Position numbers and translations under genes: made by a program. From assembly GCF_047249845.1 (NCBI RefSeq), contig NZ_JBKTWO010000005.1:15397-79396 (forward strand): a stretch of 64,000 nt of DNA, in the 5' to 3' direction. Source of the stretch: Thomasclavelia sp. Its GTDB lineage: Bacteria > Bacillota_I > Bacilli_A > Erysipelotrichales > Coprobacillaceae. Positions 28,692-46,204 of the stretch are shown here, piece by piece. A model generated the notes under the pieces. That model was given only the letters and a program-made list of their open reading frames with translations, made no database searches and had not been told where the DNA came from. Every line of letters begins with the position of its first letter. The stretch's first letter is position 1.

Positions 28692-28857
28692 ATTTCTTCA
28701 CCTAAGTACCTTTTATTTAAGTATATCTTAGATAACTTGAATTGCATAGCACTCGAACTAAATTTAGCTCTTATTTCATCAAAATACTTTATATACTTAG
28801 AATTGTATTTCAATTCTAAAACAAAAATAACTTACTAAATTTGTTTATATTCACAAA

Positions 28858-28891
28858 AAAGTAATGATTGGAATATTCCAATCATCACTTT
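28858..28891 (-). terminator. Terminator closing the phage-tail operon
   Basis: atgattggaat/attccaatcat palindrome right after the amidase stop, T-run on the minus strand. Confidence 0.7.
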
Positions 28892-28892
28892 C

Positions 28893-29729
28893 TTAATATT
28901 TTTCACCACTTAATAAATATTTCCATGTATTTTTTCCAACTATACCATCTTGTTTTAAATCACGATTTTTTTGAAATACCTTTACTGCATTTTTAGTTTT
29001 AGTCCCAAAGATTCCATCTTCTACAATATTAAAACCAACACTATTTAACCTCTCTTGAATTAGTTTAGTTATATTACCACATGCATTTAATTTTACCATT
29101 GGACAAGCTATTAAAATATTAATAGAATTTATACCATTAACTATTAGGTTACTTGAATATTGTCTATTTAATTCCTCTTGTAATCTAGCAATCCAATCAT
29201 CATATTTACCACTTGGATTTTCATTACAAATTCCTCGATAAATTGCTTCTGCAAATTTATCAGAACCTAGCATTAGATATCTATTAGCATCCTCACTATC
29301 AACAAAACAAACTTCAACTAAGATACTTTTAGCTTTAGTTTTCTTGATCACGTATAAATTACTTCCATCTTTAACTCCACGATTATTAAAATCTAATAAT
29401 TGAATATTTTTACATATATTTAAAGCTGGTTGTAATTTCTTACCCTTATATGTATATACTTCAATGCCCTTTCCACCACCTGCATTAAAATGAACTGATA
29501 TAAAATAATCCACATCCTCTCTATTAGCAAGTTCAACACTTTTCTTTAAATATTCTACTTGAGTATTAGCTTTATCAACTGTACAGTTAATTACTTTATG
29601 TCCACTATTTTCTAATAGTCTTATTAACTTTTCTCCTACTTTGCGTGTTTCAATGCTTTCTTCTATGATTCCTACAGCACCACTTCCCGGCCCTTTTAGT
29701 GTATGACCACAGTTAATTGCAATTTTCAT
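28893..29729 (-). CDS. Endolysin: Amidase_3 with C-terminal PG-binding domain
   Basis: INCGH, E, SVHFNA and LVEVCFVD zinc-amidase motifs; DGIFG..T..AVK.FQ....L..DGIVG..TW. Confidence 0.92.
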   Translation of the reverse strand: MKIAINCGHTLKGPGSGAVGIIEESIETRKVGEKLIRLLENSGHKVINCTVDKANTQVEYLKKSVELANREDVDYFISVHFNAGGGKGIEVYTYKGKKLQPALNICKNIQLLDFNNRGVKDGSNLYVIKKTKAKSILVEVCFVDSEDANRYLMLGSDKFAEAIYRGICNENPSGKYDDWIARLQEELNRQYSSNLIVNGINSINILIACPMVKLNACGNITKLIQERLNSVGFNIVEDGIFGTKTKNAVKVFQKNRDLKQDGIVGKNTWKYLLSGEKY

Positions 29730-29976
29730 ATAATCTTCTATCTTTCAATCCAGGGGTTGTTGGGTCATTAATTGCATTAAACACACTAACAAATACCAAA
29801 CTTAATACATAGGGATTTTTAAAAGCATCAATTAATAAATTGATTAGAGTACCCCAAGTAGTTATATCTTCTGCTCTTAATCCAGCATATGCTAAAATTG
29901 GCGTTAAGACAGCTAATATCATTTGTACTAGAAAAACAGGATTCTTTAATCTGACTCTTAAATTTATATTTTTCAT
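29713..29976 (-). CDS. Phage holin (phi LC3-like)
   Basis: INLRVRLKNPVF and DPTT.G motifs, two TMs, immediately upstream of the amidase. Confidence 0.85.
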   Translation of the reverse strand: MKNINLRVRLKNPVFLVQMILAVLTPILAYAGLRAEDITTWGTLINLLIDAFKNPYVLSLVFVSVFNAINDPTTPGLKDRRLYENCN

Positions 29977-29988
29977 AATATTATTTTA

Positions 29989-31269
29989 TTAAGCCGTTCT
30001 TTTCCACATATAACAAGTAATATAAGGTTGTACCTTTGATGGAGTTCCACCATTTGCTTCCAATACTACTGTACTATGATTTACAGCAAATGAGGAAGTA
30101 GTAGTTGCATGTAAGTTCAAATTATACTCTCCATGACCTGGAACTGGATTGGAAGCTTGATATCCTATTTTATTTGTATCTCCACCTATTGCTCCAATTA
30201 ATGCTCTTAATTCAACACTTTTTGAGCCGCCTGTTTTTTCTACATAACTAAAATCATTATCACTAGAATCTACACCAACTGGAACTCTACCATTACCCCA
30301 TCTAATCCATGTACCACCAAAAGTTGTTTGAGGTGATACAGAAGATGTACTCATATATATACAACCGATAGGATGCATTAATAAAAATAATTGTTTTGTT
30401 AGAGCTGTTACAGAATTAAAAGCATTTTTTAATTCTGTTATTTGATCTAAAGCAATCATATTAAATTTTTTATTCCAAGCTGTATTACTTTTTAGATAAA
30501 AATCTCCATTAGCTGTATTAACATAAAAGTCACCATTTTTACCTAAAGAAGATGCTGGAGTTGTAGTTCCATTTCTAATAATCACGACACTATTAGCTGC
30601 ATCATTTGCTCTTTGAGTAGCCTGATTGGCATTAGTTGTTGCAACTTTTGCATCATTGGATGCATCTTGAGCATTTTTAGCTCCCTGGGTAGCTAATATA
30701 GTAGCATTTCTTGTGTTACTTGTAGCACTTATTGAATCTGCTACTGCTGAAGTAATTTCATTTTGTTGGGTTATCGCTCTTTCAATTAATTTATTCACTT
30801 CGTTTTGATGATGATTAGATGTGCTAAGTAATTCGCTAACTACATCTTTTACATTTAAATCAATATAATCATCGGCCACTTTAATTACCAGATCCTGCCA
30901 AGTATTTTCTTCAGGTAAAATATTACCCTTACCAGCAGTAGCTTTTACTTTATAGATAATAGGATTAGTCTGTATTGTTTCACTTCCATTTGAAAGTGAA
31001 AAAGCTATTGCTAGATAACCATCTAACTCAAAAGCTTGGGGTGGTAATTTAAAAATATCATTATTTATCATTAATTGATATGTTTTAGAATCCCTATTAT
31101 TTTCTAAAAAACGATTATTTAAATACTTATAGTGTGGTACCACAACATAATTTTCATATTTACCATCTTTTATAAATCTGAATTCAATATCTCCACTAAA
31201 CTGTGCTGGAATATCAGTAATATCACATGATAAATCATACCCTATTTGGGTAATTGTTGATACAATCAT
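29989..31269 (-). CDS. Baseplate-upper / receptor-binding tail fibre protein
   Basis: BppU-like N-terminus, Ala-rich coiled coil, G..GDFY motif, C-terminal PIG.IYMS...P...FGGTW...GRVPVG...QPYITCYMWKRTA; last structural gene before the holin. Confidence 0.75.
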   Translation of the reverse strand: MIVSTITQIGYDLSCDITDIPAQFSGDIEFRFIKDGKYENYVVVPHYKYLNNRFLENNRDSKTYQLMINNDIFKLPPQAFELDGYLAIAFSLSNGSETIQTNPIIYKVKATAGKGNILPEENTWQDLVIKVADDYIDLNVKDVVSELLSTSNHHQNEVNKLIERAITQQNEITSAVADSISATSNTRNATILATQGAKNAQDASNDAKVATTNANQATQRANDAANSVVIIRNGTTTPASSLGKNGDFYVNTANGDFYLKSNTAWNKKFNMIALDQITELKNAFNSVTALTKQLFLLMHPIGCIYMSTSSVSPQTTFGGTWIRWGNGRVPVGVDSSDNDFSYVEKTGGSKSVELRALIGAIGGDTNKIGYQASNPVPGHGEYNLNLHATTTSSFAVNHSTVVLEANGGTPSKVQPYITCYMWKRTA

Positions 31270-33165
31270 TTAATTATTTCCTCCTTCTATTTTTTCATTT
31301 AACTCCTGAATTGCTTTATAGACAATTGCTAAAGCATTAATAATATTAATCTTTTTTTTATCGCTACTAAGTAGCTTATCTGATATTTGATAATTATTGC
31401 CTGTTAAAAAACTAATCTGATTATCATTATCTTGTTGATAAGTATAAATATTTGTATTAATTATTTCATTTAAAGCATTTTCATTAAATAATTTAATATC
31501 TTGATTTATTTTTTCTTCCTGATTTAAATAAACATTATTAATATCAATTTTATTTACCATTAGTTCATCTGGTTTTAGATGACCGTTCTTATAACTATTT
31601 CCATCTGGTAAAATTACTTTCCAATCTAAAATACTAGTCGAATTACTATTCATATTAAAAGATAGTTTTCCTTCTTTAGGATTATCATTAACCTGATAAT
31701 CACTTGTACTTTGTAATCCTCTATCAGTTATCTTCCAGCCACCAATAAATCCATCATTACATTCAATCATTATATCTTTTAAACATCCTTTTTTTATATA
31801 TGAAGCATCTAATTCTTTATTTATTCCCCAGGCAATATTAAACGGTCCTTCCTTACCACTATTACTAAAGGCTATTCCACTAGCATCAATTCTTAAAATA
31901 TTTTGAGCCGAATTAATATCATCACTATCCATATAATAAGTAGCTCTTGGTTTACCAAAGCTATCAGTTTTAGTATATACATAACCACCATTAGTACCAT
32001 TTATTAAATCTACTTTGTCTTGTACCAGTTCTTGAAATAACTGTGTATTCAAATTGAGATTATTATTTACTTTTGATATATCTCGATTAGTCGTAATTGC
32101 TAAATCTGAACTTGTTGCAATAGTTTTATCTAAAGTTATTTTTGAATTAGAGGGATCAAGATAATCTTTTTCTAAAACTACACATAAAAAATAATCATCT
32201 ATTTTATGTTCTTTTGAGACACACTTTAAATTATCCCCTAATCTAATCTTTTCAATATCAACTTCAACTAATGATAAGTCAATAGCTGTAATTGTTAATG
32301 ATAAAGACATTTTAGTAAGCTGGGATAAATCCTGTTTTGCCCTTTCCAACAAATCATCAGGATCACTGATTTTAGGATATTCTCTAACCCCATAGATCCA
32401 GCCATATTTTAATATGGCATCTTCATCATAGATATACTCTTTACCATCATTTACTTTTTCTATTGTTATTGGTAAATCTGTTTTTGGATCCTTTTCACCT
32501 AACGGAATCAGAGCTGTTATTAGATCTACAGATGTTATGTATTGTTCTAAGTCTAGAATATTTTTCTTAAACTTTATTTCTTGCGAATTTAAATGATTAT
32601 AGTAGTAGTTATAATCAAGATAATTTTTATTATCTTCTTCTCTTATTGATATATAACCTCCACATTGATCAATTAATATATCTTGAATACTACTCATTGT
32701 AGTTGTTCTTTTTTTATCCATATTAGAGATACAAATTCCATTATCAAATACATCTCCAACATATATATTTTTTTCTTTTTCAACCATCTGATTATGCTTA
32801 TCCAAACACACTTTTAAATATTCATTAACACTAATATTTTCTCCTGTCTTTAATAGCTGAATAGTATCATTTAAGTATCCTAATACTCCTTCACAAATAA
32901 AAGTCCTAATGCCATCAATAGTATCAGTACTTTCAATTACACGCCCCTTAAACATTAATTCTTGACCATCCTGATTTATCTCAATAAGTCTTATTATTGA
33001 AACGAGTTTATTAATTTTATTATAATTAGGATGATTGGGTAATATAGTAAAAATTAATGTATTTGATGTATTAATTTTTTGTTTTAAATTAAGCTTAACA
33101 CAACGATAATCATAATCTGAAGTATCATGAATAATATAATCATCACTTAACAATTTAACTATCAT
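31270..33165 (-). CDS. Tal / tail spike (prophage tail endopeptidase-like) with S74-like C-terminus
   Basis: F.ILPNHP, CEG.LGYLND, TALIPLG and YGWI motifs; C-terminal KAIQEL; follows Dit. Confidence 0.8.
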   Translation of the reverse strand: MIVKLLSDDYIIHDTSDYDYRCVKLNLKQKINTSNTLIFTILPNHPNYNKINKLVSIIRLIEINQDGQELMFKGRVIESTDTIDGIRTFICEGVLGYLNDTIQLLKTGENISVNEYLKVCLDKHNQMVEKEKNIYVGDVFDNGICISNMDKKRTTTMSSIQDILIDQCGGYISIREEDNKNYLDYNYYYNHLNSQEIKFKKNILDLEQYITSVDLITALIPLGEKDPKTDLPITIEKVNDGKEYIYDEDAILKYGWIYGVREYPKISDPDDLLERAKQDLSQLTKMSLSLTITAIDLSLVEVDIEKIRLGDNLKCVSKEHKIDDYFLCVVLEKDYLDPSNSKITLDKTIATSSDLAITTNRDISKVNNNLNLNTQLFQELVQDKVDLINGTNGGYVYTKTDSFGKPRATYYMDSDDINSAQNILRIDASGIAFSNSGKEGPFNIAWGINKELDASYIKKGCLKDIMIECNDGFIGGWKITDRGLQSTSDYQVNDNPKEGKLSFNMNSNSTSILDWKVILPDGNSYKNGHLKPDELMVNKIDINNVYLNQEEKINQDIKLFNENALNEIINTNIYTYQQDNDNQISFLTGNNYQISDKLLSSDKKKINIINALAIVYKAIQELNEKIEGGNN

Positions 33166-33599
33166 AACTTTTTGTCCTCATCATTTAAATAATGTTTTTT
33201 AAAAGGTTCAGCAAGAATATTAATTGTTATCTGATTAACTAAATTATTATCTCGATTATCCACCTCTATTGATACTCTGCCTTCATAATAATATTCACTA
33301 TCACTAGTTATAACCGCTTTAACTTTTTGACCATGAAATAAATTAAATAATTCTTCAATATATTTATGCCATAATTCTGTTTTTTCAACACTATCAACAT
33401 TAATACTAATTACTCTTTGCTGGTATGTTGGCTTACCATACACCTCAGTTAAATCTACATAATTATTTGAATATGGAATTGCAACAATATTAGTTATTAC
33501 TTCAGGCGCACCAATATGATAACTAAGAATTCTCATTTTAAAATCATCTCTTAATGAATAACTTTTTTTCTCATCTTGATATAAAATCAAATCTATCAT
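33162..33599 (-). CDS. Distal tail protein (Dit)
   Basis: IP......DLTE..G...Y..R, HGQ, YYYEGR and AEPFK motifs; lies between TMP and Tal. Confidence 0.75.
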   Translation of the reverse strand: MIDLILYQDEKKSYSLRDDFKMRILSYHIGAPEVITNIVAIPYSNNYVDLTEVYGKPTYQQRVISINVDSVEKTELWHKYIEELFNLFHGQKVKAVITSDSEYYYEGRVSIEVDNRDNNLVNQITINILAEPFKKHYLNDEDKKL

Positions 33600-35437
33600 G
33601 CCCCATGTCTCCCCCTTCGGCTAGTTTCTCTACCTAATTCAATATCTACAGTTGGGGTAACGATTTTACCAACTGCTGTTTTATCCATATATACATCCAT
33701 TTTAATTTTTGCCATACTAGTTGCCAGCTTATCATAATCAATTAAATCTTCATTAGCAGTATTTTGTTTACTAAACTCTAAAGATATGTCATTACTAAAC
33801 CATCTAGCAGAAGATCTAGCTGACTGTCTTAATTTCTTAAATCCTGAATCAGTAACATTTATCATATCTTTTGTTGCTGAGGGCATTGCTAATTCAAAGC
33901 CAACTGCAATACCACTTGGTAAATATCTACCAATTTCATCACGCATCTTATGTGATGGCGAAAAAATATCAAAGAAACCGGTTATTGCATCCATTACCCC
34001 TTTACAAGCTTCCATTGCTATGTCTAATAGACCACCAATCCCTTTTTTAAATCCATCAATAATTCCACTAATGATATCTTTTCCTAATTGCAGCCAATTA
34101 GTATTGACGATCGTATCTTTTATATTTGATACAATTGTTTTAGCTAATTCTTTTATATTATTGATTAAATTAGAAATACCATTTAAAATAAACGTCATTA
34201 CATCTTTACCTAACTGATACCAGTCTATTTCTTTAATTTTAGCCATAAAGTTGCTCATTAACTCATATCCAACTTCAATTAAACTACCAACTAAATTTTT
34301 TATTCCATCAATAATATTTTGTAAAATCTGTTTACCACTTTCTAATAACTCTGGTCCTTTTTCAATTAATGCCATAATAAACTGAGATATTATTTCTGGT
34401 ACCCTTTCAATTAAACCTGGTAAAGCATTAAAGATACCGGTTATTAAACCATCTAATAAATTCATTCCAGTTTCTAAAATTGCTGGTAAATTTACAATTA
34501 ATCCCTCAATTAAAGCCATTACCATATCTAATGCAGCTGGTATAAGTACAGGAAGCTGGGCAGCTAAACCATCAACTAAACTCAAAATAAGAGTTAACGC
34601 TGTTTCTGCCAACATAGGTAAATTTTCCATTATCCCTAATAATAATTGACTAATTATTCCAAATCCAACTTCTGATAATTGTGGAGTTAGTTGGTTAATC
34701 GTTTCACATACTGTTGTTAATATCCCACTTGCAGTATCAATAATCCCAGGTAAAGCTGCTATTATTCCTTCCATCATTTGGGTTAATAAGTTTGATCCGG
34801 TTTCTAACATTGCATCAGTCCCGCCACTATTAAACGACTCTTGCAATTGTGCTACGGCATCAATTCCAAAATCTGCCATTTCATTAAGCGGAGCTTCAAG
34901 ACCAGCAACTAAACTTTGACCTAAAGCATTTACACCTTGATCAATCGTTTTCATCTTTCCTGAAAAACTCTCAAATGAATTACCTATTTTTAATACCTGT
35001 TCAATACCACCTTTAGCCATATTGATGATTGAACTTCCAACCCCTTTTATAACACTGCCAATACTCTTAGCTACACTTCCAATTTGCTTAACACTTTGGC
35101 TCCAATTTTTAGACTGTTTATCCGCTGATTCCCTAGTGACTTTATTAGCTTTTTCATTACTACTAGTCAATATATTTAAAGCATTGCTATTAACTGAATT
35201 AATTACTTTACCTGTTGCATCCACAATTCCACTCGATGCAGTTGCTATTCCTGAGGCTATATCTGAAATAGTACTTCCTAAAGTTTTAGCAAGATTTCCA
35301 ATTGTTTCACCTAGTGCACTAGCAATATCGCTAATCATATCCATGATTGCCCCACTTGCTTCTTTAACAACTGTGGGAATTACTTTAATTGCAATCTTTA
35401 ATTTATCTATCTTACTGCCTTGATCTTTTTTATCCAT
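33596..35437 (-). CDS. Tape measure protein (613 aa)
   Basis: Long amphipathic Ala/Gly/Ile repeats with periodic Pro/Trp; GKDII.GII.G and FFDIFSPS...RDEIG..L..GIAVG TMP C-terminal motif. Confidence 0.88.
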   Translation of the reverse strand: MDKKDQGSKIDKLKIAIKVIPTVVKEASGAIMDMISDIASALGETIGNLAKTLGSTISDIASGIATASSGIVDATGKVINSVNSNALNILTSSNEKANKVTRESADKQSKNWSQSVKQIGSVAKSIGSVIKGVGSSIINMAKGGIEQVLKIGNSFESFSGKMKTIDQGVNALGQSLVAGLEAPLNEMADFGIDAVAQLQESFNSGGTDAMLETGSNLLTQMMEGIIAALPGIIDTASGILTTVCETINQLTPQLSEVGFGIISQLLLGIMENLPMLAETALTLILSLVDGLAAQLPVLIPAALDMVMALIEGLIVNLPAILETGMNLLDGLITGIFNALPGLIERVPEIISQFIMALIEKGPELLESGKQILQNIIDGIKNLVGSLIEVGYELMSNFMAKIKEIDWYQLGKDVMTFILNGISNLINNIKELAKTIVSNIKDTIVNTNWLQLGKDIISGIIDGFKKGIGGLLDIAMEACKGVMDAITGFFDIFSPSHKMRDEIGRYLPSGIAVGFELAMPSATKDMINVTDSGFKKLRQSARSSARWFSNDISLEFSKQNTANEDLIDYDKLATSMAKIKMDVYMDKTAVGKIVTPTVDIELGRETSRRGRHGA

Positions 35438-35481
35438 ATTATCATCTCCTTTAACAAGAAAATGTAATGGCTCAAAGGCTC
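35438..35481 (-). promoter_or_regulatory. Putative RNA switch: GAGCC-ttt-GAGCC plus hairpin occluding the TMP Shine-Dalgarno
   Basis: Minus strand GAGCCTTTGAGCC then ATTA-CATTTTCTT-gtta-AAGGAGATG-a-TAAT-ATG, which can pair over the SD. Confidence 0.55.
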
Positions 35482-35483
35482 GA

Positions 35484-35648
35484 TTAAATTACTTTTCCAT
35501 TTTTAATTTCTATTTTATTTTCATAACCACATTTTTTACATTTAATAAATAGTCCCCCACAATTGGCTTTATTGTCATATAATAAAATCTTTTTATTGCA
35601 ATGATAGCAACGAAACCAGTCTTTTCTCATTGGTGGTATTTTTATCAT
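35484..35648 (-). CDS. 54-aa C4 zinc-finger protein, Mu Com-like
   Basis: Not in ORF track. GGAG RBS; MIKIPPMRKDWFRCYHCNKKILLYDNKANCGGLFIKCKKCGYENKIEIKNGKVI with RCxxCxK...IKCxxCxxxN pattern. Confidence 0.75.
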   Translation of the reverse strand: MIKIPPMRKDWFRCYHCNKKILLYDNKANCGGLFIKCKKCGYENKIEIKNGKVI

Positions 35649-35660
35649 CTATCTATCTCC

Positions 35661-36227
35661 TTACCATAAAACCTGAGCAATCATTTCATCATTTATCTCA
35701 ATTTTATCTAGACTTAATTCATGTTGAATTTTACGGATTCTTGCTCGTTCTTTTTTATCACTTATGTTAGATAAATCTATTCCCCGATAATACATTCTCT
35801 GTTTTAATTCACAATCACCTAAACCATGAAATAATGCTAAAAAATGAAACCAGTGCATATTTTCTTTTAAAAGATTTATTTGATAATGTTGTTGAAAAGC
35901 GGCAATAAAATAACCACTATCTATTTTGTAATCATAAATTCTTTTTTTACTACTTAATTTATTATTTGTTGATAATTGTTCTTTTTTATTATCAACATTC
36001 CCAATTAAAAAATCTTTTATTGCTACAAAAACTTCATGATCAAATTTTTCAGGTATTTCATCATAAAAAATATTCATTAAAACATTAGCCAAATATTCTT
36101 TATTGCAATTAGGGATATTTAAAGCATCGCTCAACTCAATCCAATATTTAAAATCTGTATTGATTAAAAAGTCTTTGTTCCTAACAGCGATGCTGTTAGG
36201 TAAAGACTCATATAATAGATTAATCAT
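35661..36227 (-). CDS. Gp15-like tail assembly chaperone (A118 type)
   Basis: LP.......INTDF..WI, D..ID...I.AAFQQ.Y.I.L....MHW..F.ALF.GL motifs. Confidence 0.8.
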   Translation of the reverse strand: MINLLYESLPNSIAVRNKDFLINTDFKYWIELSDALNIPNCNKEYLANVLMNIFYDEIPEKFDHEVFVAIKDFLIGNVDNKKEQLSTNNKLSSKKRIYDYKIDSGYFIAAFQQHYQINLLKENMHWFHFLALFHGLGDCELKQRMYYRGIDLSNISDKKERARIRKIQHELSLDKIEINDEMIAQVLW

Positions 36228-36594
36228 TTATTGTAGATAATTTACGACGTTGGGCTCTGTTTTTTGGTTGTAAAGACATTCTTCTTAAAGTCATTTCTTC
36301 ATTTGCTTTTTTATTCATATTTACTAAGCTGATAAAAGCTTCTTCATACAATCTTAGATTACGTTTATTTTTGAATAATTTTTGTGATGTTCCTTTGCCA
36401 AATACACTATCAAAAAATCTGTGATAACATGTACATAACTCTTTTATTCGATCCATATCTCTGCCATCCTTGGGCATATCTTTACAATTATCGCTTAGCT
36501 CATACATTGCTTTACTATAAGACTCTAAAAAGTCTACATCCTCAAAATCTGCATTCAATTCGATTTCATTATATTTCCATTTTACTTGGCTCAT
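36220..36594 (-). CDS. Tail assembly chaperone
   Basis: FFD.VFGKG...KLF and C-terminal NRAQRR motifs; lies between MTP and gp15. Confidence 0.7.
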   Translation of the reverse strand: MSQVKWKYNEIELNADFEDVDFLESYSKAMYELSDNCKDMPKDGRDMDRIKELCTCYHRFFDSVFGKGTSQKLFKNKRNLRLYEEAFISLVNMNKKANEEMTLRRMSLQPKNRAQRRKLSTIND

Positions 36595-36610
36595 AGGCTC
36601 CTCCTTTATT

Positions 36611-37096
36611 TTATTTAAATGTTACTGATGCTCCTTCAGCATCTAAAGTGGCAATACCTTTAATACTACTTGATTTAGATTTTAAAGTTCCAGTGTAAGA
36701 ATACGTATCTGCATTATCTCCATCAGTTCCCGGAATAATTGCAAATAATCGTTTTCTTGCTTCAAATTCATTATTATTTTCACCTACTGGTGATGTCATA
36801 TCAACAATTACGATTTCACGTACAGCAGCACTTCCTGTTTTTTCGTCTTCAGTAATTTCTATAATATCCTTATGTACCTCATTATTTGTATATTGATCAA
36901 AGGTATATTCAATTGATGGACTATATCCTGTAACATCTGTGATTTCTCCAGTTTCATCAACATACTGACGAGCATATTCTTTTGGATTTGCACTTTTAGA
37001 CATAGCTGTAAACCCTGTCATTCTAATAAATTTTTCCCCTACTTTATAAAAAGCAACTTTTTTATTTCTTGTTACTAATGTTTGTTCTCCTGCCAT
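36611..37096 (-). CDS. Major tail (tube) protein
   Basis: S.NP....RQYVDE......TGYSP motif, strong AGGAGG RBS, position in the tail module. Confidence 0.75.
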   Translation of the reverse strand: MAGEQTLVTRNKKVAFYKVGEKFIRMTGFTAMSKSANPKEYARQYVDETGEITDVTGYSPSIEYTFDQYTNNEVHKDIIEITEDEKTGSAAVREIVIVDMTSPVGENNNEFEARKRLFAIIPGTDGDNADTYSYTGTLKSKSSSIKGIATLDAEGASVTFK

Positions 37097-37098
37097 GA

Positions 37099-37509
37099 TT
37101 AATTCCTCCTATATAAAATTCTTAACTTTACTTGGTATTTCGCTGTATTTGTTTCTCTAGTAATTTGATTACTATTTTCAATAACCTCAATTGCATAAAC
37201 TTCTTCTTGAAGATTAGGATAATTACCAATTGTATTTTGCGTTTGAATCCATTTTTCAAACATTTCATAAAATTCAATATTTTTTTGATTAATACTATAA
37301 TCATTACTATATGATTCTATTGAAGTTATAGCAAACTGATATTGTTGAATTGATGATCCATCTACATACTGTTTTACAACTGGTTCACATGGTATTTTAT
37401 CAACAGAATATTCATTTGCTTCATTTCCAAGATAATCAATATTTATATTTTTCTGACTTAGATAAGGACATGTATACAAATACTCCCTTACTGCTTTAAT
37501 TACACTCAT
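37099..37509 (-). CDS. Tail terminator / completion protein
   Basis: YVDGS...QYQF, N..FYE.F..WI..QN..G..P and AKYQ motifs; directly precedes the MTP. Confidence 0.65.
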   Translation of the reverse strand: MSVIKAVREYLYTCPYLSQKNINIDYLGNEANEYSVDKIPCEPVVKQYVDGSSIQQYQFAITSIESYSNDYSINQKNIEFYEMFEKWIQTQNTIGNYPNLQEEVYAIEVIENSNQITRETNTAKYQVKLRILYRRN

Positions 37510-37553
37510 ATTAATACTCCTTTTGTTTTACACCTAATTTAGATATTACTTTT

Positions 37554-37976
37554 TTAATTAAATAAACACGGGTGTAACTGTTTTATTAGTTTGATTTGTT
37601 CATCTAAACCATATAACTTTCCATTTTGATAAGATATTTTATTCATATCTATTAATTTTTTTAATAAATTAATATCTTTGACATTATAATTATTTGTTTT
37701 TTCTATAAATGTATATTTAAAGTTAATCTCTTTAATATCTTTTTGATATTTACTTTTCCAATATTTTAGCTCTTGTTCAAGTTTTCCGATATTAATCTCA
37801 TTTATTCCGCTCTTTAAATATCCTAAGTCTTCTTTTAATTTTTTTATTTGACTATCCTTTACACTCATTTTCCTTTTCCATTCAATAATATCCAGTTGAT
37901 GTAAAAGCATGATATCTTCCATTTGCTTCTTTGTTAAATTATTAACTCTTTTTAAATCTTTTCTTTTCATATTCAA
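37554..37976 (-). CDS. GP20-like capsid scaffolding protein, diverged vestige
   Basis: MKR..L....LT..Q...IM..H N-terminus, coiled coil, KL.GLDEQIK.IK..HP.LF GP20-like motif; ends right after that motif. Confidence 0.6.
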   Translation of the reverse strand: MNMKRKDLKRVNNLTKKQMEDIMLLHQLDIIEWKRKMSVKDSQIKKLKEDLGYLKSGINEINIGKLEQELKYWKSKYQKDIKEINFKYTFIEKTNNYNVKDINLLKKLIDMNKISYQNGKLYGLDEQIKLIKQLHPCLFN

Positions 37977-37980
37977 TTTT

Positions 37981-38057
37981 ACCTTTTATCTACGCTTTAT
38001 TAATGTGAGTTGCTCTCACTTGACGGCTTGCCTTTTTACGCCTTGCGCTATGGCTTA
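37981..38057 (-). ncRNA. Candidate structured cis-regulatory leader upstream of the GP20-like gene
   Basis: GC-rich island with GCC-N9-GGC-GTAAAA and GTGAG-agcaa-CTCAC hairpins, then AAAGCGTAG before the RBS. Confidence 0.4.
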
Positions 38058-38103
38058 GATAATATGCATATTATTTTTAGTAGCCATCACTGACTACACT
38101 CAT

Positions 38104-38150
38104 ATCTTATCATTTAAATTAACTAATTTAGTCCCAAATAAATCCCAATA
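38104..38150 (-). promoter_or_regulatory. Activator-dependent late promoter of the tail operon
   Basis: TTGGGA direct repeats 11 bp apart in place of a -35 (38132-38137, 38143-38148); extended -10 TGaTAAGAT (38104-38112). Confidence 0.55.
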
Positions 38151-38151
38151 T

Positions 38152-38577
38152 TTATAATTCCTTAGTGCTATGTTTATTCGCAATTGGTGCTAATACCTTG
38201 TCAAGTTTATTACATGCATTACTTAGTATCTTATAATATGTTGTTCTTGAAATGCCTTTTTCTAAAGCGTTATATTCACGTTTTGAGGAATTATCTGGAT
38301 CATTTGCGTATATTAAAACACAATTTTTTTCTTCTTCATTAAGTAAATCATTTATTGAATGCTCTAATCTTTCTATAAAAAATTGATAATAAAATATAAT
38401 TTCATCATACTGCTTACATTCTTCTATTAAATTATTTGTTTTTTCTATTATTTCACTATGGTCATCGTTTACCAAACTAGTCTTTTTAATTTCTACTTGT
38501 TCTTTAGTATTATTTAATAACATTAATGTATGTTTCCATCTTTTCCAATTCTTTAATTCATATTTACTTTCCTTCAT
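38152..38577 (-). CDS. ArpU/RinA-like late transcriptional activator
   Basis: 141 aa, coiled coil then L.EEE...V...Y and ISRTTYYKI...A..KL C-terminal HTH; directly upstream of the structural genes. Confidence 0.65.
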   Translation of the reverse strand: MKESKYELKNWKRWKHTLMLLNNTKEQVEIKKTSLVNDDHSEIIEKTNNLIEECKQYDEIIFYYQFFIERLEHSINDLLNEEEKNCVLIYANDPDNSSKREYNALEKGISRTTYYKILSNACNKLDKVLAPIANKHSTKEL

Positions 38578-38595
38578 CCCTTACCGCCTTTCTTT

Positions 38596-38815
38596 GTAGA
38601 CAATTTATCTACTTATAGTTAAAAAAACATAAAGCATCTCTGCTTTATTCTTCTCTAATTATACTTATTATTGTTCTAATTAAATCACCTTTCCTCCCCC
38701 TTTTATTGCAGAACCAACTTCTACATTAAATATCTTAATATTTTGTAGAAAAATTGTCAACACATTAAGATATAAACATTGATTTGTTGAAAAAAAGGAT
38801 ACAAAATGTTAAAAT
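38596..38815. promoter_or_regulatory. Divergent promoters with four GTAGA-N7-TCTAC operator-like sites
   Basis: Sites at 38596, 38708, 38745 and 38786; leftward TTGACA-17-TAAGAT (38760-38732); rightward TTGAAA-17-TAAAAT (38787-38815). Confidence 0.75.
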
Positions 38816-38837
38816 ATTATTACTATGATAAAAGGAA

Positions 38838-39476
38838 GTGAAAATCATGTCACATATGGGAAATAGAATAAAAAAACTAAGAGAACAGCATAAAATGACT
38901 CAGGATGATCTTGCTCAACAGTTAGGATACTCCTCTCGCTCATCAATTAATAAAATAGAAATTGGAAGAAGTGACCTTCCACAATCAAAGATTCCTTTAG
39001 CTGCTAAAATTCTTCATACTACTCCTGCCTATATCTTAGGGTGGCAAGAATCACTTAAACCAATAGATCATGAATTTGAAAAGATTCCTGTCTATCCTCC
39101 CCTATGTTGTGGTGATGGATGGTTTACAGAGGATAATATTATAGATTATATATCTATTCCTAAAAAAATGCTGCAACCCCACAAACAATATTTTGCAAAC
39201 TATGCTATGGGTGATTCCATGAAAGATGAAAATATTAATGATGGTGATCTTGTAATATTTGAACATACTAATCTTATAAATAATGGTGAAATTGGATGTT
39301 TTAATATTGACAACAATGAAGCTACATGTAAGATATTTAAACGTGATCCAAAAACTTCAATTATTATGCTTTTACCTGCAAATAATAATTATCAACCAAT
39401 TATTATTACCTCACAAAATATTGGTTTTAAGGTTATTGGTAAATTAGCTCTTGTTATAAATAATCGTCAACGATAA
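38838..39476 (+). CDS. CI/LexA-like repressor (XRE HTH plus S24 peptidase)
   Basis: MTQDDLAQQLGY.SRSSINKIE HTH; LCCG cleavage site; GDSM Ser and ATCK Lys dyad. Confidence 0.92.
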   Translation: MKIMSHMGNRIKKLREQHKMTQDDLAQQLGYSSRSSINKIEIGRSDLPQSKIPLAAKILHTTPAYILGWQESLKPIDHEFEKIPVYPPLCCGDGWFTEDNIIDYISIPKKMLQPHKQYFANYAMGDSMKDENINDGDLVIFEHTNLINNGEIGCFNIDNNEATCKIFKRDPKTSIIMLLPANNNYQPIIITSQNIGFKVIGKLALVINNRQR

Positions 39477-39535: not shown

Positions 39536-41236
39536 TTAACCTCTTTTTTTACGTAAAACTTGTACCCCTAAACCACCTGAGATTATTAATAATAACATCA
39601 TAGGTACTAAATTAATTGTATCTCCTGTATTTGGATTTGGTTTACTTTCGTTTTGTTCAGGTTTTTTATCTTCTTTTAATACTAATGCTGCGACTGCATC
39701 TTGAATTGATTTTGCCATAGCATTAACTTCATTTTGTTTAGTTATATCTAAACCATATACAACTGCTGCTTTAGCATCATTTAAAAGTTTAACAGTTTCT
39801 TCAGTATAAATAGTTAAATCATTTGGAATTGAGGAAATTGCTTCTTCTACTTTTGTATAATCTGCTGATTTAATTACTAACTCTTTAATTGCACTTTCAA
39901 TAGCTATTGCATATCCATCTACAATATCTTGTTCAGTAACTCTTTTATTTCTAATAACTGCATTAATAGCATTATTTAATTTTGCTACTGTTTCCTGCGT
40001 ATAGATTTCTAAGTTTGTTGGAACTGAAGCAATTACTTCATCTACTCTAGTATAATCTGCAGGACGAATTAAATAGTCAGCATGTTTAGTTGAAAACTGA
40101 TCCATTAAAGCAAATATTCTATCAAAATCATGCTCTTTGCTTGGATCATCACACCAAACACATTGCATACTTCCAATAATATTTATTTTACTAGTTGCTC
40201 CAGTTACATCAGTAAATTCTTTTTGATCAATATTGACAGTAGTATTTTCATATTTATATCCACCGTCTGTAACGTTTCCTAATACCCAATACCAGGCATC
40301 ATTAGTATTAAGAATTTTATGTCCTTTTTCTGCTAAATATTCTGGTTTAGCAACATAGAATCCCCACCATCCAGCAGTCCAATAAGAAATAATAATATCT
40401 TTGTCAAAAGTACCAAAATTATCTTTACTATTATAGTAGATACCATCATTGAAACACATTGGTTCCATTCCAGCGTCTTTAATAATTTTTGCATTTTCAT
40501 TTACATATGCAATAAATTCATCATATAATCCTAAATCTTGTAAATAGCTCCATCCTGGATTTCCAAATACATCATTTGCATATTCATCTGCACCAAAGTT
40601 AAAGATTTCAGATGCTCCAGAGTTTCCAAAATAAGTAGCATATTTTTTTACTAATTCATGTGTAAATTTAACTGCTACATCATTTTCAATATTAACAGTA
40701 CGCTCAGATACTTTATTGTCATGTGTAAAACGTACATCTTCTAATCCTAACTCTTCCATTGCAACTAGAATAGAATCCATGTGTCCTGGACTATTAATAA
40801 CAGGAACTACACTTAAACCTCTCTCTTTTGCATAAGCAAGAATACGGTCCATTTCAGCTTCTGTTAAAGCATTACCATTAGGATCATCATAATAATGTTT
40901 ATTACCTTTTGTTAAAGCTGCTTTTACATCATCACTAGAATATGTAATCCCATTTACTTCCATTGTCATATCAGCTAAAAAGAATCTTAACGCATCATTA
41001 CCTAATAAAATCTGTACATCTGTATATCCATTTTTATAAGCTTTATCAATTATCGACTTTAGTTGTTCTTCAGAAAAATACTTTCTACCTGCATCAATAG
41101 AAAATATGCTTTTTAATTGTTGTGTTTCATTTTCTTGTGCTTGAATTTTAGTAACCCCACCAACTGTAAATACAGCACCAAAAATCATTGTACAACAAAG
41201 TACAAATGATATAACTTTATTAAATATTTTTTTCAT
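39536..41236 (-). CDS. Cell-wall-anchored GH20 beta-N-acetylhexosaminidase (StrH-like)
   Basis: SIDAGRKYFS, NSPGHMD and FNFGADEY motifs; two ADYT.V helical repeats; NPNTG + hydrophobic + RKKR sorting signal. Confidence 0.88.
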   Translation of the reverse strand: MKKIFNKVISFVLCCTMIFGAVFTVGGVTKIQAQENETQQLKSIFSIDAGRKYFSEEQLKSIIDKAYKNGYTDVQILLGNDALRFFLADMTMEVNGITYSSDDVKAALTKGNKHYYDDPNGNALTEAEMDRILAYAKERGLSVVPVINSPGHMDSILVAMEELGLEDVRFTHDNKVSERTVNIENDVAVKFTHELVKKYATYFGNSGASEIFNFGADEYANDVFGNPGWSYLQDLGLYDEFIAYVNENAKIIKDAGMEPMCFNDGIYYNSKDNFGTFDKDIIISYWTAGWWGFYVAKPEYLAEKGHKILNTNDAWYWVLGNVTDGGYKYENTTVNIDQKEFTDVTGATSKINIIGSMQCVWCDDPSKEHDFDRIFALMDQFSTKHADYLIRPADYTRVDEVIASVPTNLEIYTQETVAKLNNAINAVIRNKRVTEQDIVDGYAIAIESAIKELVIKSADYTKVEEAISSIPNDLTIYTEETVKLLNDAKAAVVYGLDITKQNEVNAMAKSIQDAVAALVLKEDKKPEQNESKPNPNTGDTINLVPMMLLLIISGGLGVQVLRKKRG

Positions 41237-44272: not shown

Positions 44273-44283
44273 TTTTCTACCTC

Positions 44284-46167: not shown

Positions 46168-46171
46168 AATT

Positions 46172-46200: not shown

Positions 46201-46204
46201 TCTA

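What the first reader, a model, noticed from the sequence alone, without database searches (positions are those of the whole stretch)
28893..39476. Intact headless siphophage tail cassette: candidate F-type tailocin in a gut Firmicute
Seen: in 10.6 kb, a repressor, late activator, tail terminator, tube, two chaperones, TMP, Dit, Tal, RBP, holin and amidase, all with open frames, bounded by terminators and by ordinary genes (yihY, GH20). There is no capsid, portal, terminase, head-tail adaptor, integrase or replication gene, and no sheath. Known: a tail-plus-lysis-plus-regulator layout is that of flexible tail bacteriocins such as F-pyocins and Listeria monocins. Inference: this is a domesticated, DNA-damage-inducible killing particle. 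Glycan pseudogenes nearby are full of stops while these genes are clean, which suggests selection. At about 0.15 nm per residue the 613-aa TMP predicts a tail of roughly 90 nm. I do not know of a described tailocin in this lineage but cannot check that.
Basis: partly seen in the sequence, partly recalled or inferred. Interest (0 to 1): 0.92.

Follow-up and report, generated by a model that had tools for sequence, protein, structure and literature searches.

The report
Headless phage-tail weapon in Thomasclavelia
A gut bacterium related to Thomasclavelia cocleata keeps a complete phage tail gene set without a head, with its own switch and cell-bursting genes; it is most likely a tail-shaped bacteriocin for killing rival strains, a kind of weapon already known from Listeria, Enterococcus and Clostridium histolyticum.

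Summary
Window 28893-39476 carries 14 intact genes: XRE-S24 repressor, putative activator, tail completion protein, tube, two chaperone-position genes, TMP, Dit, Tal, RBP, holin and amidase. It has no capsid, portal, terminase, connector, integrase or sheath gene. The organism is close to Thomasclavelia cocleata.

The same cassette is intact in 4 of 11 species of the genus. In a five-marker tree these species form one clade, with one clean 10.7-kb loss in a sister species. Every gene gives dN/dS of 0.06-0.35. Neutral drift of 0.1 substitutions per site would add about 75 stops.

Complete relatives show that exactly two head blocks are missing. Within one lineage, variation concentrates in the RBP C-terminal domain. 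The tube matches the solved tube of the C. histolyticum F-type tailocin.

Verdict: a domesticated F-type tailocin, probably SOS-inducible (confidence 0.7; particles and killing untested). It is a new member of a known kind. Unusual features are a minimal 145-aa Dit, the retained scaffold-like gene, and a position inside a hypervariable rhamnose cell-wall-polysaccharide locus.

The parts
38838..39476 (+). XRE-HTH / peptidase S24 repressor (212 aa), CI/LexA-like and self-cleaving type
   Evidence: Pfam Peptidase_S24 1.5e-22 and HTH_3 1.1e-10; phrog_4 5e-36. The Cys-Gly site (PLCCGDG), the Ser of the G-D/N-S-M motif and a Lys 38 residues later are invariant in 5 of 5 orthologues. dN/dS is 0.06-0.09.
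38578..38837 (.). Divergent control region between the repressor and the activator gene
   Evidence: 260-bp gap with promoter-like hexamers on both strands (minus 38760-38732, plus 38787-38815). These are consensus matches only. 93% nucleotide identity between G000 and T. cocleata.
38152..38577 (-). Putative late-gene transcriptional activator (141 aa)
   Evidence: phrog_36 'transcriptional regulator' in 3 of 5 orthologues (best E 9e-7), phrog_248 'transcriptional activator' in 2 of 5, phrog_351 sigma factor in 2 of 5. The Atlas gives a lead to ArpU/DUF722 regulators. The AF2 model (pLDDT 85) is a helical hairpin plus three short helices. No Pfam family matched and the fold searches were inconclusive.
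37977..38151 (-). Conserved late-promoter region upstream of the structural genes: direct repeat TTGGGA-N5-TTGGGA (38130-38148) and palindrome AATATGCATATT (38061-38072)
   Evidence: Alignment of 7 loci. These blocks are invariant, although synonymous sites of neighbouring genes are near saturation between the same species.
37554..37976 (-). Head-scaffold-family ORF (140 aa), a relic of the lost head module
   Evidence: PF06810 5.9e-15, above the gathering score; phrog_194 5.3e-15. It is intact in G000, G070 and G076 with dN/dS 0.12-0.35. It is cleanly absent in G074 and in metagenome contig L041.
37099..37509 (-). Tail completion / terminator protein (136 aa)
   Evidence: phrog_3266 'tail completion' 4.1e-39; 39% identical to RG-TP1 gp30 'tail completion'.
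36611..37096 (-). Tail tube protein (161 aa)
   Evidence: PDB 11OK, the tube of the C. histolyticum F-type tailocin: E 2.4e-10 with one sequence and 4.5e-12 with the profile. phrog_3099 1.1e-37. It is the most conserved structural gene (86-87% amino-acid identity, dN/dS 0.06-0.18).
36220..36594 (-). DUF6673 protein (124 aa), first gene in the tail-assembly-chaperone position
   Evidence: PF20378 5.5e-16; phrog_4450. It has the same position between tube and TMP in RG-TP1, L046 and L047. The chaperone role is inferred from position.
35661..36227 (-). Gp15-family protein (188 aa), second gene in the chaperone position; overlaps the previous ORF by 8 nt
   Evidence: PF06854 7e-32; phrog_706 2.8e-39. 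The overlap was read. The role is inferred from position.
35484..35648 (-). 54-aa Zn-ribbon protein (CxxC...CxxC)
   Evidence: phrog_6417 'translational regulator' 1.4e-5. It is conserved in all four species with dN/dS 0.12-0.24, and is present but unannotated in RG-TP1 (43% identity). Function unknown.
33596..35437 (-). Tape measure protein (613 aa)
   Evidence: phrog_5493 1.2e-51, phrog_58 5.7e-44. Hydrophobic core at residues 225-323. Lengths in the four species are 613, 569, 617 and 615 aa, with in-frame indels.
33162..33599 (-). Minimal distal tail protein Dit (145 aa), N-terminal ring domain only
   Evidence: phrog_33 9.2e-10. The AF2 model (pLDDT 66) best matches the monocin Dit 9j1k_K (probability 1.00, E 4.8e-3, TMq 0.59), then SPP1 Dit 2x8k and TP901-1 4v96, all chains of 241-272 residues. 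It has some of the lowest dN/dS values among the structural genes (0.06-0.15).
31270..33165 (-). Tal / baseplate hub protein (631 aa)
   Evidence: PF06605 Prophage_tail 1.5e-16; phrog_3558 4.2e-95. 90%, 74% and 73% identity in three sister species.
29989..31269 (-). Receptor-binding protein (426 aa) with a variable C-terminal head domain
   Evidence: PF21939 Gp10_C 1.4e-22 at residues 295-425; phrog_24267. The C-terminal domain is 42.5% identical to the RBP of the resident C15 prophage. It is the only variation hotspot within the T. cocleata-like lineage (86-88% nucleotide identity in two of three pairs, with indels, against 93-100% elsewhere).
29713..29976 (-). Holin (87 aa)
   Evidence: PF04531 Phage_holin_1 4.7e-19. 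The scan found a hydrophobic stretch at residues 10-34.
28893..29729 (-). Endolysin: N-acetylmuramoyl-L-alanine amidase with a PG_binding_1 domain (278 aa)
   Evidence: PF01520 5.9e-29, PF01471 5.2e-17, phrog_435 9e-59.
28855..28885 (-). Intrinsic-terminator-like hairpin (9-bp stem, 4-nt loop) followed by T6, 8 nt after the amidase stop
   Evidence: Read directly. The stem was found by the scan, which listed it on the plus strand.

Best explanation
The cassette is a domesticated, chromosomally inherited F-type (non-contractile) phage tail-like bacteriocin. It derives from an RG-TP1-like temperate siphophage that lost two head blocks (terS to minor head protein, and capsid plus connectors), and also its integrase and replication genes.

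Proposed working:
1. In the uninduced cell, the XRE-S24 repressor shuts off the divergent activator gene. (Inferred.)
2. DNA damage activates RecA, which stimulates self-cleavage of the repressor at its Cys-Gly site by the Ser-Lys dyad. (The motifs are shown; cleavage is inferred.)
3. The 141-aa activator turns on the conserved promoter with the TTGGGA direct repeat upstream of the structural operon. (Conservation is shown; binding is inferred.)
4. Assembly takes place. The TMP (613 aa), held by the two chaperone-position proteins, sets a tube of roughly 22-25 hexameric rings, about 90-100 nm long. The tube is capped by the completion protein and closed at the tip by a minimal Dit ring and a Tal trimer that carries the RBP. 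(Parts are shown; assembly is inferred by analogy with monocin.)
5. Holin and amidase lyse the producer cell and release the particles.
6. The RBP head domain binds a cell-wall glycopolymer on related strains. The tip then opens and the hydrophobic TMP forms or seeds a membrane channel, which kills the target without DNA transfer. (Inferred; the killing step is unresolved even for the model F-type systems.)
For: - **Parts list.** It is complete for a siphovirus tail plus switch plus lysis, with no capsid, portal, terminase, connector, integrase or sheath family.
- **Complete relatives.** Phage RG-TP1, IMG/VR contigs L046 and L047, and the genome's own C15 prophage as far as annotated, share one module order. 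The cassette lacks exactly the blocks on either side of the scaffold gene.
- **Conservation.** The same headless order is found with every ORF full length in G000, G070 (= T. cocleata DSM 1551), G076 and G074, and wherever covered in 5 of 5 metagenome loci and 1 of 3 IMG/VR loci. The other two IMG/VR loci are complete-looking phages.
- **Shared junctions.** The junctions and the promoter region are shared across species, so head loss predates the species splits.
- **Selection.** dN/dS is 0.06-0.35 in all pairs while dS reaches 0.3 to more than 1; flanking genes give 0.08-0.17. A neutral simulation at d = 0.1 gives a mean of 75 premature stops, with 0 of 200 runs intact. A neighbouring pseudogene shows what decay looks like in this window.
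- **Phylogeny.** The four carriers form one clade (support 80/85) with cassette-free G073 nested inside it. G073 lacks exactly the repressor-to-amidase stretch (10.66 kb) between flanks that are 94% identical, and keeps about 12 nt of the repressor's 3' end.
- **RBP hotspot.** Variation within one lineage falls on the RBP C-terminal domain, as reported for efagin ef1291.
- **Link to known tailocins.** The tube is homologous to the tube of a tailocin seen by cryo-EM and mass spectrometry. The Dit fold is closest to the monocin Dit.
- **Heads elsewhere.** The only head module found in the genome belongs to a prophage that has its own full tail set.
Against: - No particle, expression or killing data exist, and no RNA run was listed.
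- The cassette occurs in only 4 of 11 species of the genus, and G073 lost it cleanly, so it is dispensable.
- A head-scaffold-family gene is retained under constraint in 3 of 4 species, which a pure tail weapon does not obviously need.
- The Dit lacks the C-terminal galectin/rod-holder domain that anchors the fibres in monocin, so RBP attachment is unexplained.
- dS is mosaic. Between G070 and G076 the chaperone/Zn-ribbon block has dS 0.06-0.35, against 1.29-1.30 for the repressor and Dit. Blocks are therefore exchanged between lineages, possibly with live phages, and part of the purifying selection may have acted in phage genomes.
- The own genome is only 80.6% complete, so a further head module cannot be excluded.
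- The activator assignment rests on weak profile matches.
Confidence: 0.7

Rival explanations
1. The cassette is a tail donor. Its tails are made to complete tail-less capsids encoded elsewhere, such as a capsid-forming satellite or a tail-deficient phage. The selected function would then be gene transfer, not killing.
For: A head-scaffold-family ORF is kept under constraint. A sibling prophage of the same phage family lives in the same genome, with a related RBP head domain at 42.5% identity. The genome is 80.6% complete. Capsid-only satellites that borrow helper tails are known from the literature; this is recalled and no paper was read here.
Against: The cassette lacks the head-tail adaptor and connector genes that all the complete relatives place between capsid and tail completion. 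The only terminase, portal and capsid genes found lie in the C15 prophage, which has its own completion protein, tube, TMP, Dit and RBP. The cassette carries its own repressor, activator and lysis genes, so it fires on its own.
Confidence: 0.08
2. The cassette is a non-functional prophage remnant that has simply not decayed yet.
For: It clearly derives from a prophage by deletion, with a scaffold relic. It is absent from 7 of 11 species, and G073 lost it without visible consequence. It has no integrase or att repeats.
Against: Fourteen ORFs (13 in G074) are intact in four species that have diverged to dS 0.3 to more than 1, with dN/dS 0.06-0.35. Neutral drift at d = 0.1 already gives about 75 stops, with 0 of 200 simulations intact. 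The TMP length changes are in frame. The promoter region is conserved. A real pseudogene 13 kb away is frame-broken.
Confidence: 0.07
3. The cassette is a regulated lysis module whose selected function is SOS-triggered autolysis, for example release of public goods, DNA or vesicles. On this view the tail genes are carried along.
For: Repressor, activator, holin and amidase form a complete inducible lysis circuit.
Against: The tail genes, about 8 kb, are under constraint as strong as or stronger than the lysis genes: tube 0.06-0.18 and Dit 0.06-0.15, against amidase 0.16-0.27. The RBP tip is a diversification hotspot, which implies selection on target recognition.
Confidence: 0.05
4. The cassette is part of an active split prophage, or the headless appearance is an assembly artefact and the head genes lie next to it in the real chromosome.
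For: The assemblies are draft, and the G074 and G076 contigs break in ChW repeats next to the cassette.
Against: In G000 (95-kb contig), T. cocleata DSM 1551 and the 78.6-kb metagenome contig L042, the cassette is contiguous with host genes on both sides. The place where heads sit in relatives, between activator and tail completion, is covered in every copy and holds only the scaffold-like ORF or nothing.
Confidence: 0.02

Closest known systems
[quoted passage not shown]
   Same: Both have a regulatory region, terminator, tube, two chaperones, TMP (622 aa in monocin, 613 aa here), Dit, hub protein, RBP, then holin and lysin, with no head genes. Monocin is 103 nm long with 22 tube rings (passages read). 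The Dit fold here is closest to monocin FtbK, 9j1k_K.
   Different: PDB sequence searches with Tal, RBP, terminator and Dit found no monocin chain. The Dit here lacks the galectin/rod-holder domain. There is no counterpart of the three-protein side-fibre set FtbN/O/P; a single 426-aa RBP takes its place. The ancestor resembles RG-TP1, not TP901-1. The repressor carries its own S24 cleavage domain.
F-type tailocin of Clostridium (Hathewaya) histolyticum, locus NCTC503_02168-02181, tube PDB 11OK
   Same: The tube proteins are homologous (E 4.5e-12 with the profile, over residues 11-148 of 161). Those particles are headless and sheathless, and were seen by EM and LC-MS/MS (passages read).
   Different: The organisms belong to different classes. 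Tube identity is low (HMMER alignment; not computed as a percentage). The rest of that locus was not fetched, so gene-by-gene correspondence is untested.
Efagin of Enterococcus faecalis (ef1276-ef1293)
   Same: Both are chromosomal headless phage-tail clusters with conserved neighbourhoods. In both, variation is concentrated in the C-terminal targeting domain. The efagin receptor is a variable cell-wall carbohydrate (abstract and sections 5-6 read).
   Different: Efagin is core to one species and absent elsewhere. This cassette spans several species but is patchy. It lies inside the polysaccharide locus rather than elsewhere in the chromosome; that the epa locus lies elsewhere is recalled, not checked. 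No efagin sequence was compared here.
F-pyocin of Pseudomonas aeruginosa
   Same: Both are non-contractile tail bacteriocins. In F-pyocin the TMP acts as the central assembly scaffold (abstract read).
   Different: F-pyocin has lambda-like ancestry and a Gram-negative target, and its regulation is different. No sequence relation was tested.
RG-TP1-like temperate siphophages: Ruminococcus phage RG-TP1, IMG/VR contigs L046 and L047, and the resident C15 prophage
   Same: They belong to the same PHROG families and have the same order for completion protein, tube, DUF6673, Gp15, Zn-ribbon and TMP (the Zn-ribbon match was seen in RG-TP1 only). Identity to RG-TP1 is 43% for the tube, 39% for the completion protein and 35% for Gp15. 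The RG-TP1 TMP is 618 aa.
   Different: These phages have terS, terL, portal, minor head protein, capsid and three connector genes, RG-TP1 also an integrase, and longer Dits (279-513 aa, taking the unmatched ORFs after the TMP in L046 and L047 as Dit by position).

Membership tests
F-type (non-contractile) phage tail-like bacteriocin | Complete siphovirus-type tail module: terminator, tube, chaperones, TMP, Dit, hub and RBP | tested here: met
   Every part was assigned by Pfam, PHROG, PDB sequence match or fold. The chaperone roles are inferred from position only.
F-type (non-contractile) phage tail-like bacteriocin | No sheath | tested here: met
   No sheath family matched any of the 14 cassette ORFs in Pfam or PHROGs. 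The gene directly after the completion protein is the tube.
F-type (non-contractile) phage tail-like bacteriocin | No capsid, portal, terminase, replication or integration genes in the cluster | tested here: met
   None was found. There is one exception of a related kind: a head-scaffold-family ORF at 37554-37976, which is missing in G074.
F-type (non-contractile) phage tail-like bacteriocin | Own regulatory genes and own lysis cassette | tested here: met
   S24 repressor, putative activator, holin and amidase.
F-type (non-contractile) phage tail-like bacteriocin | Maintained by selection in the host chromosome, not a decaying remnant | tested here: met
   dN/dS is 0.06-0.35 across four species. 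The neutral simulation gave 0 of 200 intact runs. The carriers form a clade with one loss.
F-type (non-contractile) phage tail-like bacteriocin | Headless tail particles are produced on induction | not testable with these tools
   This needs induction, EM and mass spectrometry. No RNA run was listed.
F-type (non-contractile) phage tail-like bacteriocin | Particles kill sensitive strains without forming plaques | not testable with these tools
   This needs spot and dilution assays with wild type and a cassette deletion.
Monocin (ftb) family | Sequence homology of the structural proteins to FtbF-FtbP | tested here: not met
   phmmer of Tal, RBP, terminator and Dit against all PDB chains, which include 9j1j and 9j1k, gave no monocin hit at E up to 0.1-5. 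The tube hit only 11OK. Only the Dit fold resembles monocin.
Monocin (ftb) family | Dit with a C-terminal galectin/rod-holder domain that carries three side fibres | tested here: not met
   The Dit is 144-153 aa in the four species. Its model aligns with the monocin, SPP1 and TP901-1 Dit chains of 241-272 residues, so it can match only part of them, read here as the N-terminal ring domain.
C. histolyticum F-type tailocin | Homologous tube protein | tested here: met
   11OK at E 2.4e-10 (single sequence) and 4.5e-12 (profile).
C. histolyticum F-type tailocin | Collinear homologous locus for the other 13 genes | not tested
[quoted passage not shown] | Capsid, portal and terminase genes that package DNA | tested here: not met
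   They are absent from the cassette. The only such genes found in the genome are on the C15 prophage. The genome is 80.6% complete.
Intact temperate prophage | Integrase, att repeats, replication module and head module | tested here: not met
   There is no integrase or replication family and no flanking direct repeat. The head module is absent.
LexA/CI/UmuD-type self-cleaving S24 repressors | Ser-Lys catalytic dyad and an Ala-Gly or Cys-Gly cleavage site between the DNA-binding and S24 domains | tested here: met
   The Peptidase_S24 domain scores 1.5e-22. Cys-Gly, the G-D/N-S-M serine and a Lys 38 residues later are invariant in 5 of 5 orthologues. The motif positions of LexA and UmuD are recalled, not taken from a call. 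Cleavage itself is untested.
ArpU/RinA/sigma-like phage late activators | Family profile match or sigma region-4-like fold | tested here: inconclusive
   phrog_36 at 9e-7, phrog_248 at 1.9e-4 and phrog_351 at 0.009 in some orthologues. The Atlas gives a lead. There is no Pfam match. Foldseek found nothing at E 0.001 or below. The VIA sigma-H hit 3mzy at Z 7.0 is tied with generic helical hairpins.

The most novel reading that the evidence does not exclude
The tailocin and its receptor locus form one linked 'weapon and shield' unit. In all four species the cassette sits inside the rhamnose-type cell-wall-polysaccharide locus. On one side are rmlA/C/B, LCP ligases and an L,D-transpeptidase. On the other are the initiating sugar transferase, PAP2, glycosyltransferases, a flippase, Wzm/Wzt and ChW wall proteins.

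The variable genes of that locus are only 40-51% identical between G000 and its sister G070, while the flanks are 87-98% identical. The RBP tip is the cassette's own hotspot.

If the polysaccharide is the receptor, physical linkage would let killing specificity and self-resistance be inherited and exchanged together. The retained scaffold-like gene and the minimal Dit would mark a distinct, stripped-down baseplate solution.
Probability: 0.2. Interest if true: 0.75.

Novelty: new member of a known kind. Interest (0 to 1): 0.5.

Why it matters
Tail-shaped bacteriocins of Gram-positive bacteria are few: monocin, efagin, diffocin and the recently seen C. histolyticum particle. They are wanted as narrow-spectrum antibacterials.

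This cassette would extend the F-type to Erysipelotrichales gut commensals. A cultured type strain, T. cocleata DSM 1551, carries it and could be induced tomorrow.

It is compact, with 14 genes in 10.6 kb and the smallest Dit among the relatives examined here. That could make it a convenient model for how a non-contractile tail kills, a step the 2025-2026 structural papers call unresolved.

Its position inside a hypervariable cell-wall-polysaccharide locus suggests a testable link between weapon specificity and self-protection. It also provides a natural sister pair, with and without the cassette, for competition experiments in the gut.

Tried and rejected
- **RNA evidence.** No RNA holder was listed for window 29000-38800.
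- **Activator family.** Pfam on 5 orthologues gave only noise. Foldseek against PDB gave no match at E 0.001 or below. VIA-wide gave Z of at most 7.7, dominated by generic helical hairpins, with sigma-H 3mzy at Z 7.0 not standing out.
- **Monocin by sequence.** PDB sequence searches with Tal, RBP, terminator and Dit gave nothing relevant.
- **Large terminase and capsid families.** PF03354, PF03237, PF05065, phrog_10 and phrog_12 have no match in the own genome. The genome is 80.6% complete, so this is 'not found', not 'absent'.
- **att-like repeats.** None bracket the cassette.
- **Remnants in cassette-free G078.** None were found at the corresponding site; all hits have E above 0.3.
- **G071 as a decay control.** Its Tal-like fragment belongs to an unrelated, fragmented HK97-type prophage. 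I did not use it as a control, because that one-contig genome scores 51% complete and even its yihY carries stops, which suggests assembly errors.
- **Code 4 or other genetic codes.** I considered these because of the 26% GC content, and dropped the idea because all genes are open under table 11.
- **Promoter and terminator scan.** It was not above chance overall, so only the two hairpins that I read directly are reported.
- **Complex prediction for RBP attachment.** It was not run. Domain boundaries and trimer stoichiometry are unknown, and the size limit would force arbitrary cuts.

Full report
**1. What is there**

The window has about 26% GC. It lies in a 95-kb contig of a 3.11-Mb draft genome that is 80.6% complete. 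The nearest named relative is Thomasclavelia cocleata DSM 1551, whose Tal protein is 90% identical.

At 28893-39476 the ORF list matches the finding base for base. Pfam and PHROGs assign these genes:
- an amidase endolysin with a peptidoglycan-binding domain
- a Phage_holin_1 holin
- a 426-aa RBP with a Gp10_C head domain
- a 631-aa Tal (Prophage_tail, phrog_3558)
- a 145-aa Dit (phrog_33)
- a 613-aa TMP
- a Gp15-family protein and a DUF6673 protein in the chaperone position
- a 161-aa tube
- a 136-aa tail completion protein (phrog_3266)
- a 141-aa regulator
- a divergently transcribed XRE-HTH/S24 repressor

One is a 140-aa member of the head-scaffold family (PF06810, 56 bits against a cut-off of 35; phrog_194). 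The other is a 54-aa Zn-ribbon protein.

No capsid, portal, terminase, adaptor, integrase, replication or sheath family matched any cassette ORF. The flanks are yihY/BrkB and a GH20 hexosaminidase, as stated. A hairpin plus T6 follows the amidase stop, and a weaker hairpin follows the repressor. The generic promoter and terminator scan was not above chance.

**2. What it came from**

The closest complete phage by tube protein is Ruminococcus phage RG-TP1. Identities are 43% for the tube, 39% for the completion protein, 35% for Gp15, 31% for DUF6673 and 43% for the Zn-ribbon.

Four relatives show one module order: RG-TP1's annotated map, IMG/VR contigs L046 and L047 (29 of 46 ORFs scanned), and the prophage on contig C15 of the same genome (36 of 66 ORFs scanned). 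Where annotated, the order is: regulator, terS, terL, portal, minor head protein, scaffold, capsid, three connector genes, tail completion, tube, DUF6673, Gp15, TMP, Dit, Tal/RBP, holin, lysin, and in RG-TP1 an integrase.

The cassette lacks exactly the block before the scaffold gene, the block between scaffold and tail completion, and the integrase. The scaffold-like ORF is therefore a relic stranded between two deletions. RG-TP1's TMP is 618 aa, so the tail length is that of the parent phage family.

**3. Is it maintained?**

Tal and a tube profile both find the cassette in 4 of 11 species of the genus: G000, G070 (= T. cocleata), G074 and G076. G071 has only a Tal-like fragment, inside an unrelated broken HK97-type prophage (45 of 84 ORFs scanned).

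In the four carriers the order is identical and every ORF is full length. TMP lengths are 613, 569, 617 and 615 aa. The scaffold-like ORF is absent only in G074.

Five metagenome loci and one IMG/VR contig add further copies, and wherever they cover the region they are headless. Among them is a 78.6-kb contig that reproduces the G000/G070 flanks.

Nei-Gojobori dN/dS is 0.06-0.35 for every cassette gene in every pair, while dS ranges from about 0.3 to saturation. The flanking host genes give 0.08-0.17. In a neutral simulation on the 10,050 coding bases, 0.1 substitutions per site already produced a mean of 75 premature stops, and 0 of 200 runs stayed intact.

A real pseudogene lies nearby. Window 15811-16708 is a frame-broken copy of the sugar transferase at 24501-25865.

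The promoter region between the regulator and the structural genes aligns across all copies. Its TTGGGA-N5-TTGGGA repeat and AATATGCATATT palindrome are invariant. Head loss therefore predates the divergence of the four species, and selection has acted on the headless form.

**4. History and position**

I built a tree from five flanking host proteins for 8 of the 11 genomes. G071, G072 and G079 were left out because I had not collected that block for them. G070 is represented by the near-identical contig L042.

The tree is ((G000, G070), (G076, (G074, G073))), with support 80/85 for the clade and 100/99 for G074+G073. G073 is 100% complete and has no cassette. The fewest changes are therefore one gain and one loss.

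G073's contig aligns to G074's at 94% on both sides but lacks L022:1451-12111, which runs from the repressor to just past the amidase. It keeps about 12 nt that match the last four repressor codons. I read this as a deletion scar, with moderate confidence.

The site is not strictly fixed. In cassette-free G073, G075, G077 and G078, MerR-methyltransferase and yihY are adjacent, about 110 bp apart. In G000 and G070, GH20 plus the cassette lie between them. In G074 and G076 the cassette lies between a ChW wall-protein gene and PAP2, while MerR-MT and yihY stay adjacent. In all four it lies between MerR-MT and PAP2 in the same orientation.

No att-like repeats flank it. dS is mosaic. Between G070 and G076 the DUF6673/Gp15/Zn-ribbon block has dS 0.06-0.35, against 1.29-1.30 for the repressor and Dit, so blocks recombine between lineages.

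**5. Signs of a targeting function**

Among three T. cocleata-like copies (L001, L042, L045), nucleotide identity is 96-100% in nearly every region (93% at worst, in the repressor-activator gap). The exception is the RBP C-terminal domain, at 86-88% in two of three pairs and with indels. The efagin paper reports the same pattern for ef1291.

That domain is 42.5% identical to the RBP head of the resident C15 prophage. Its likely receptors are therefore surface structures of the same group of bacteria.

**6. Links to proven tailocins**

The tube matches PDB 11OK at E 2.4e-10, and at 4.5e-12 with a profile. A 2026 preprint assigns 11OK to the tube of an F-type tailocin of C. histolyticum, seen by cryo-EM, negative stain and LC-MS/MS (passages read).

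The Dit model (pLDDT 66) best matches the monocin Dit 9j1k_K, then the SPP1 and TP901-1 Dits. At 145 aa against their 241-272 residues it can match only part of each, read here as the N-terminal ring domain. This Dit is thus a minimal form without the galectin/rod-holder domain where monocin fibres attach.

Sequence searches of Tal, RBP, terminator and Dit against the PDB found no monocin chain. This is a functional analogue of independent origin, not a member of the ftb family.

Monocin's 622-aa TMP goes with 22 rings and 103 nm.

**7. The switch**

The repressor has a Cys-Gly site (PLCCGDG), the serine of the G-D/N-S-M motif and a lysine 38 residues downstream. All are invariant in five orthologues. 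This matches the LexA/UmuD self-cleavage design as I recall it.

For the 141-aa protein, 3 of 5 orthologues match phrog_36 (best E 9e-7), 2 of 5 match phrog_248 'transcriptional activator', and 2 of 5 match a sigma-factor PHROG. The Atlas points to ArpU/DUF722 regulators. Pfam and the fold searches were inconclusive. SOS inducibility is therefore a well-founded inference and has not been shown.

**8. Heads elsewhere?**

In the own genome, the only matches to terminase (phrog_2), capsid (phrog_422) and portal (phrog_533) lie on C15, apart from one marginal phrog_2 hit on C26 (E 8.7e-4). That prophage has its own tube, TMP, Dit, RBP, holin and lysin. PF03354, PF03237, PF05065, phrog_10 and phrog_12 found nothing. 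With 80.6% completeness this is 'not found'.

Outside the genus, the distant Tal relatives examined sit in complete prophages (L024 and L026).

**9. Context**

The cassette is embedded in a rhamnose-type cell-wall-polysaccharide locus: rmlB/C/A, two LCP ligases, an L,D-transpeptidase, the initiating sugar transferase, PAP2, five glycosyltransferases (four GT2, one GT1), a Wzx-like flippase, Wzm/Wzt and two ChW wall proteins.

The variable genes of that locus are only 40% and 51% identical between G000 and its sister G070, and one is undetected in 8 of 10 other species. Flanking genes are 87-98% identical. This hypervariability is what one expects of a phage or tailocin receptor. The linkage is the basis of the novel reading.

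**10. Novelty**

- Full-text searches for Thomasclavelia plus tailocin, and for Erysipelotrichaceae plus 'phage tail-like bacteriocin', returned 0 papers each.
- Searches with Erysipelatoclostridium or cocleatum returned no listed paper that holds the taxon term (10 rows shown each).
- In a wider search, 12 of 593 papers were listed and none holds 'tailocin'.

The lineage appears undescribed in that library. The kind itself is known: monocin, efagin, the C. histolyticum tailocin and F-pyocin.

**Verdict**

This is a new member of a known kind, with three unusual features: a minimal Dit, a retained scaffold-like gene, and a position inside the polysaccharide locus. Confidence that it is a functional F-type tailocin is 0.7. 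Interest is 0.5.

Noticed in passing
G000 contig C15, about 29-55 kb (loci L036, L037): A complete-looking RG-TP1-like prophage lies in the same genome: terS, terL, portal, minor head protein, scaffold, capsid, adaptor, tube, Gp15-like protein, 725-aa TMP, 284-aa Dit, RBP, holin and endolysin, plus DNA methyltransferases and an HNH endonuclease. Its RBP head domain is 42.5% identical to the cassette's. The contig ends before its lysogeny module. Co-regulation with the cassette, as described for the Listeria phage/monocin pair (abstract of PMC9043618, seen in the listing), is possible but untested.
   Followed up: partly
window 4122-15810, 24501-26484 and 42671-50968: A rhamnose-type cell-wall-polysaccharide locus surrounds the cassette: Wzm/Wzt, a Wzx-like flippase, four GT2, one GT1, DUF6077, DUF2304, Bac_transf, PAP2, rmlA/C/B, two LCP ligases and an L,D-transpeptidase. 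The DUF6077 gene and one GT2 gene are only 40% and 51% identical in the sister species G070.
   Followed up: partly
window 15811-16708: A frame-broken paralogue of the initiating sugar transferase (24501-25865) lies next to the two ChW wall-protein genes. This suggests that a duplication-mediated rearrangement moved the ChW genes in the G000/G070 lineage.
   Followed up: partly
window 16709-20167 and 20266-23376: Two very large ChW-repeat cell-wall proteins: 1152 aa with a glucosaminidase domain, and 1036 aa with a Big_2 domain. Their repeats break the assemblies of G074, G076 and G073 right next to the cassette.
   Followed up: no
window 35484-35648: A 54-aa CxxC...CxxC Zn-ribbon ORF between the chaperone-position genes and the TMP is conserved in all four cassettes (dN/dS 0.12-0.24). 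It is also present but unannotated in phage RG-TP1 (L035:16977-17117). It has a weak match to a 'translational regulator' PHROG. Its function in tail assembly or expression is unknown.
   Followed up: partly
L022:2214-2423 (G074) and L021:1765-1905 (G076): Small ORFs of 69 and 46 aa lie between the repressor and activator genes in G074 and G076. They have no counterpart of 50 aa or more in the window. They could be Cro-like genes or chance ORFs.
   Followed up: no
L023 (G071:C1:1255500-1275499): An unrelated HK97-type prophage has TMP, Dit, Tal, capsid and portal split into pieces. That one-contig genome scores only 51% complete and has stops even in yihY, so the breaks may be assembly errors, not decay.
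   Followed up: partly
window 39536-41236: A secreted-looking GH20 hexosaminidase lies between the cassette and MerR-MT, only in G000 and G070. G072 has a 65% identical copy elsewhere, and the other 8 species have none at E 1e-50 or below. It appears to have arrived at this junction separately from the cassette.
   Followed up: partly
G000 contig C51, about 9.0-9.6 kb: A paralogue of the cassette repressor (47.8% identity over 205 aa) lies elsewhere in the genome. It may belong to another mobile element or to the missing lysogeny module of the C15 prophage.
   Followed up: no
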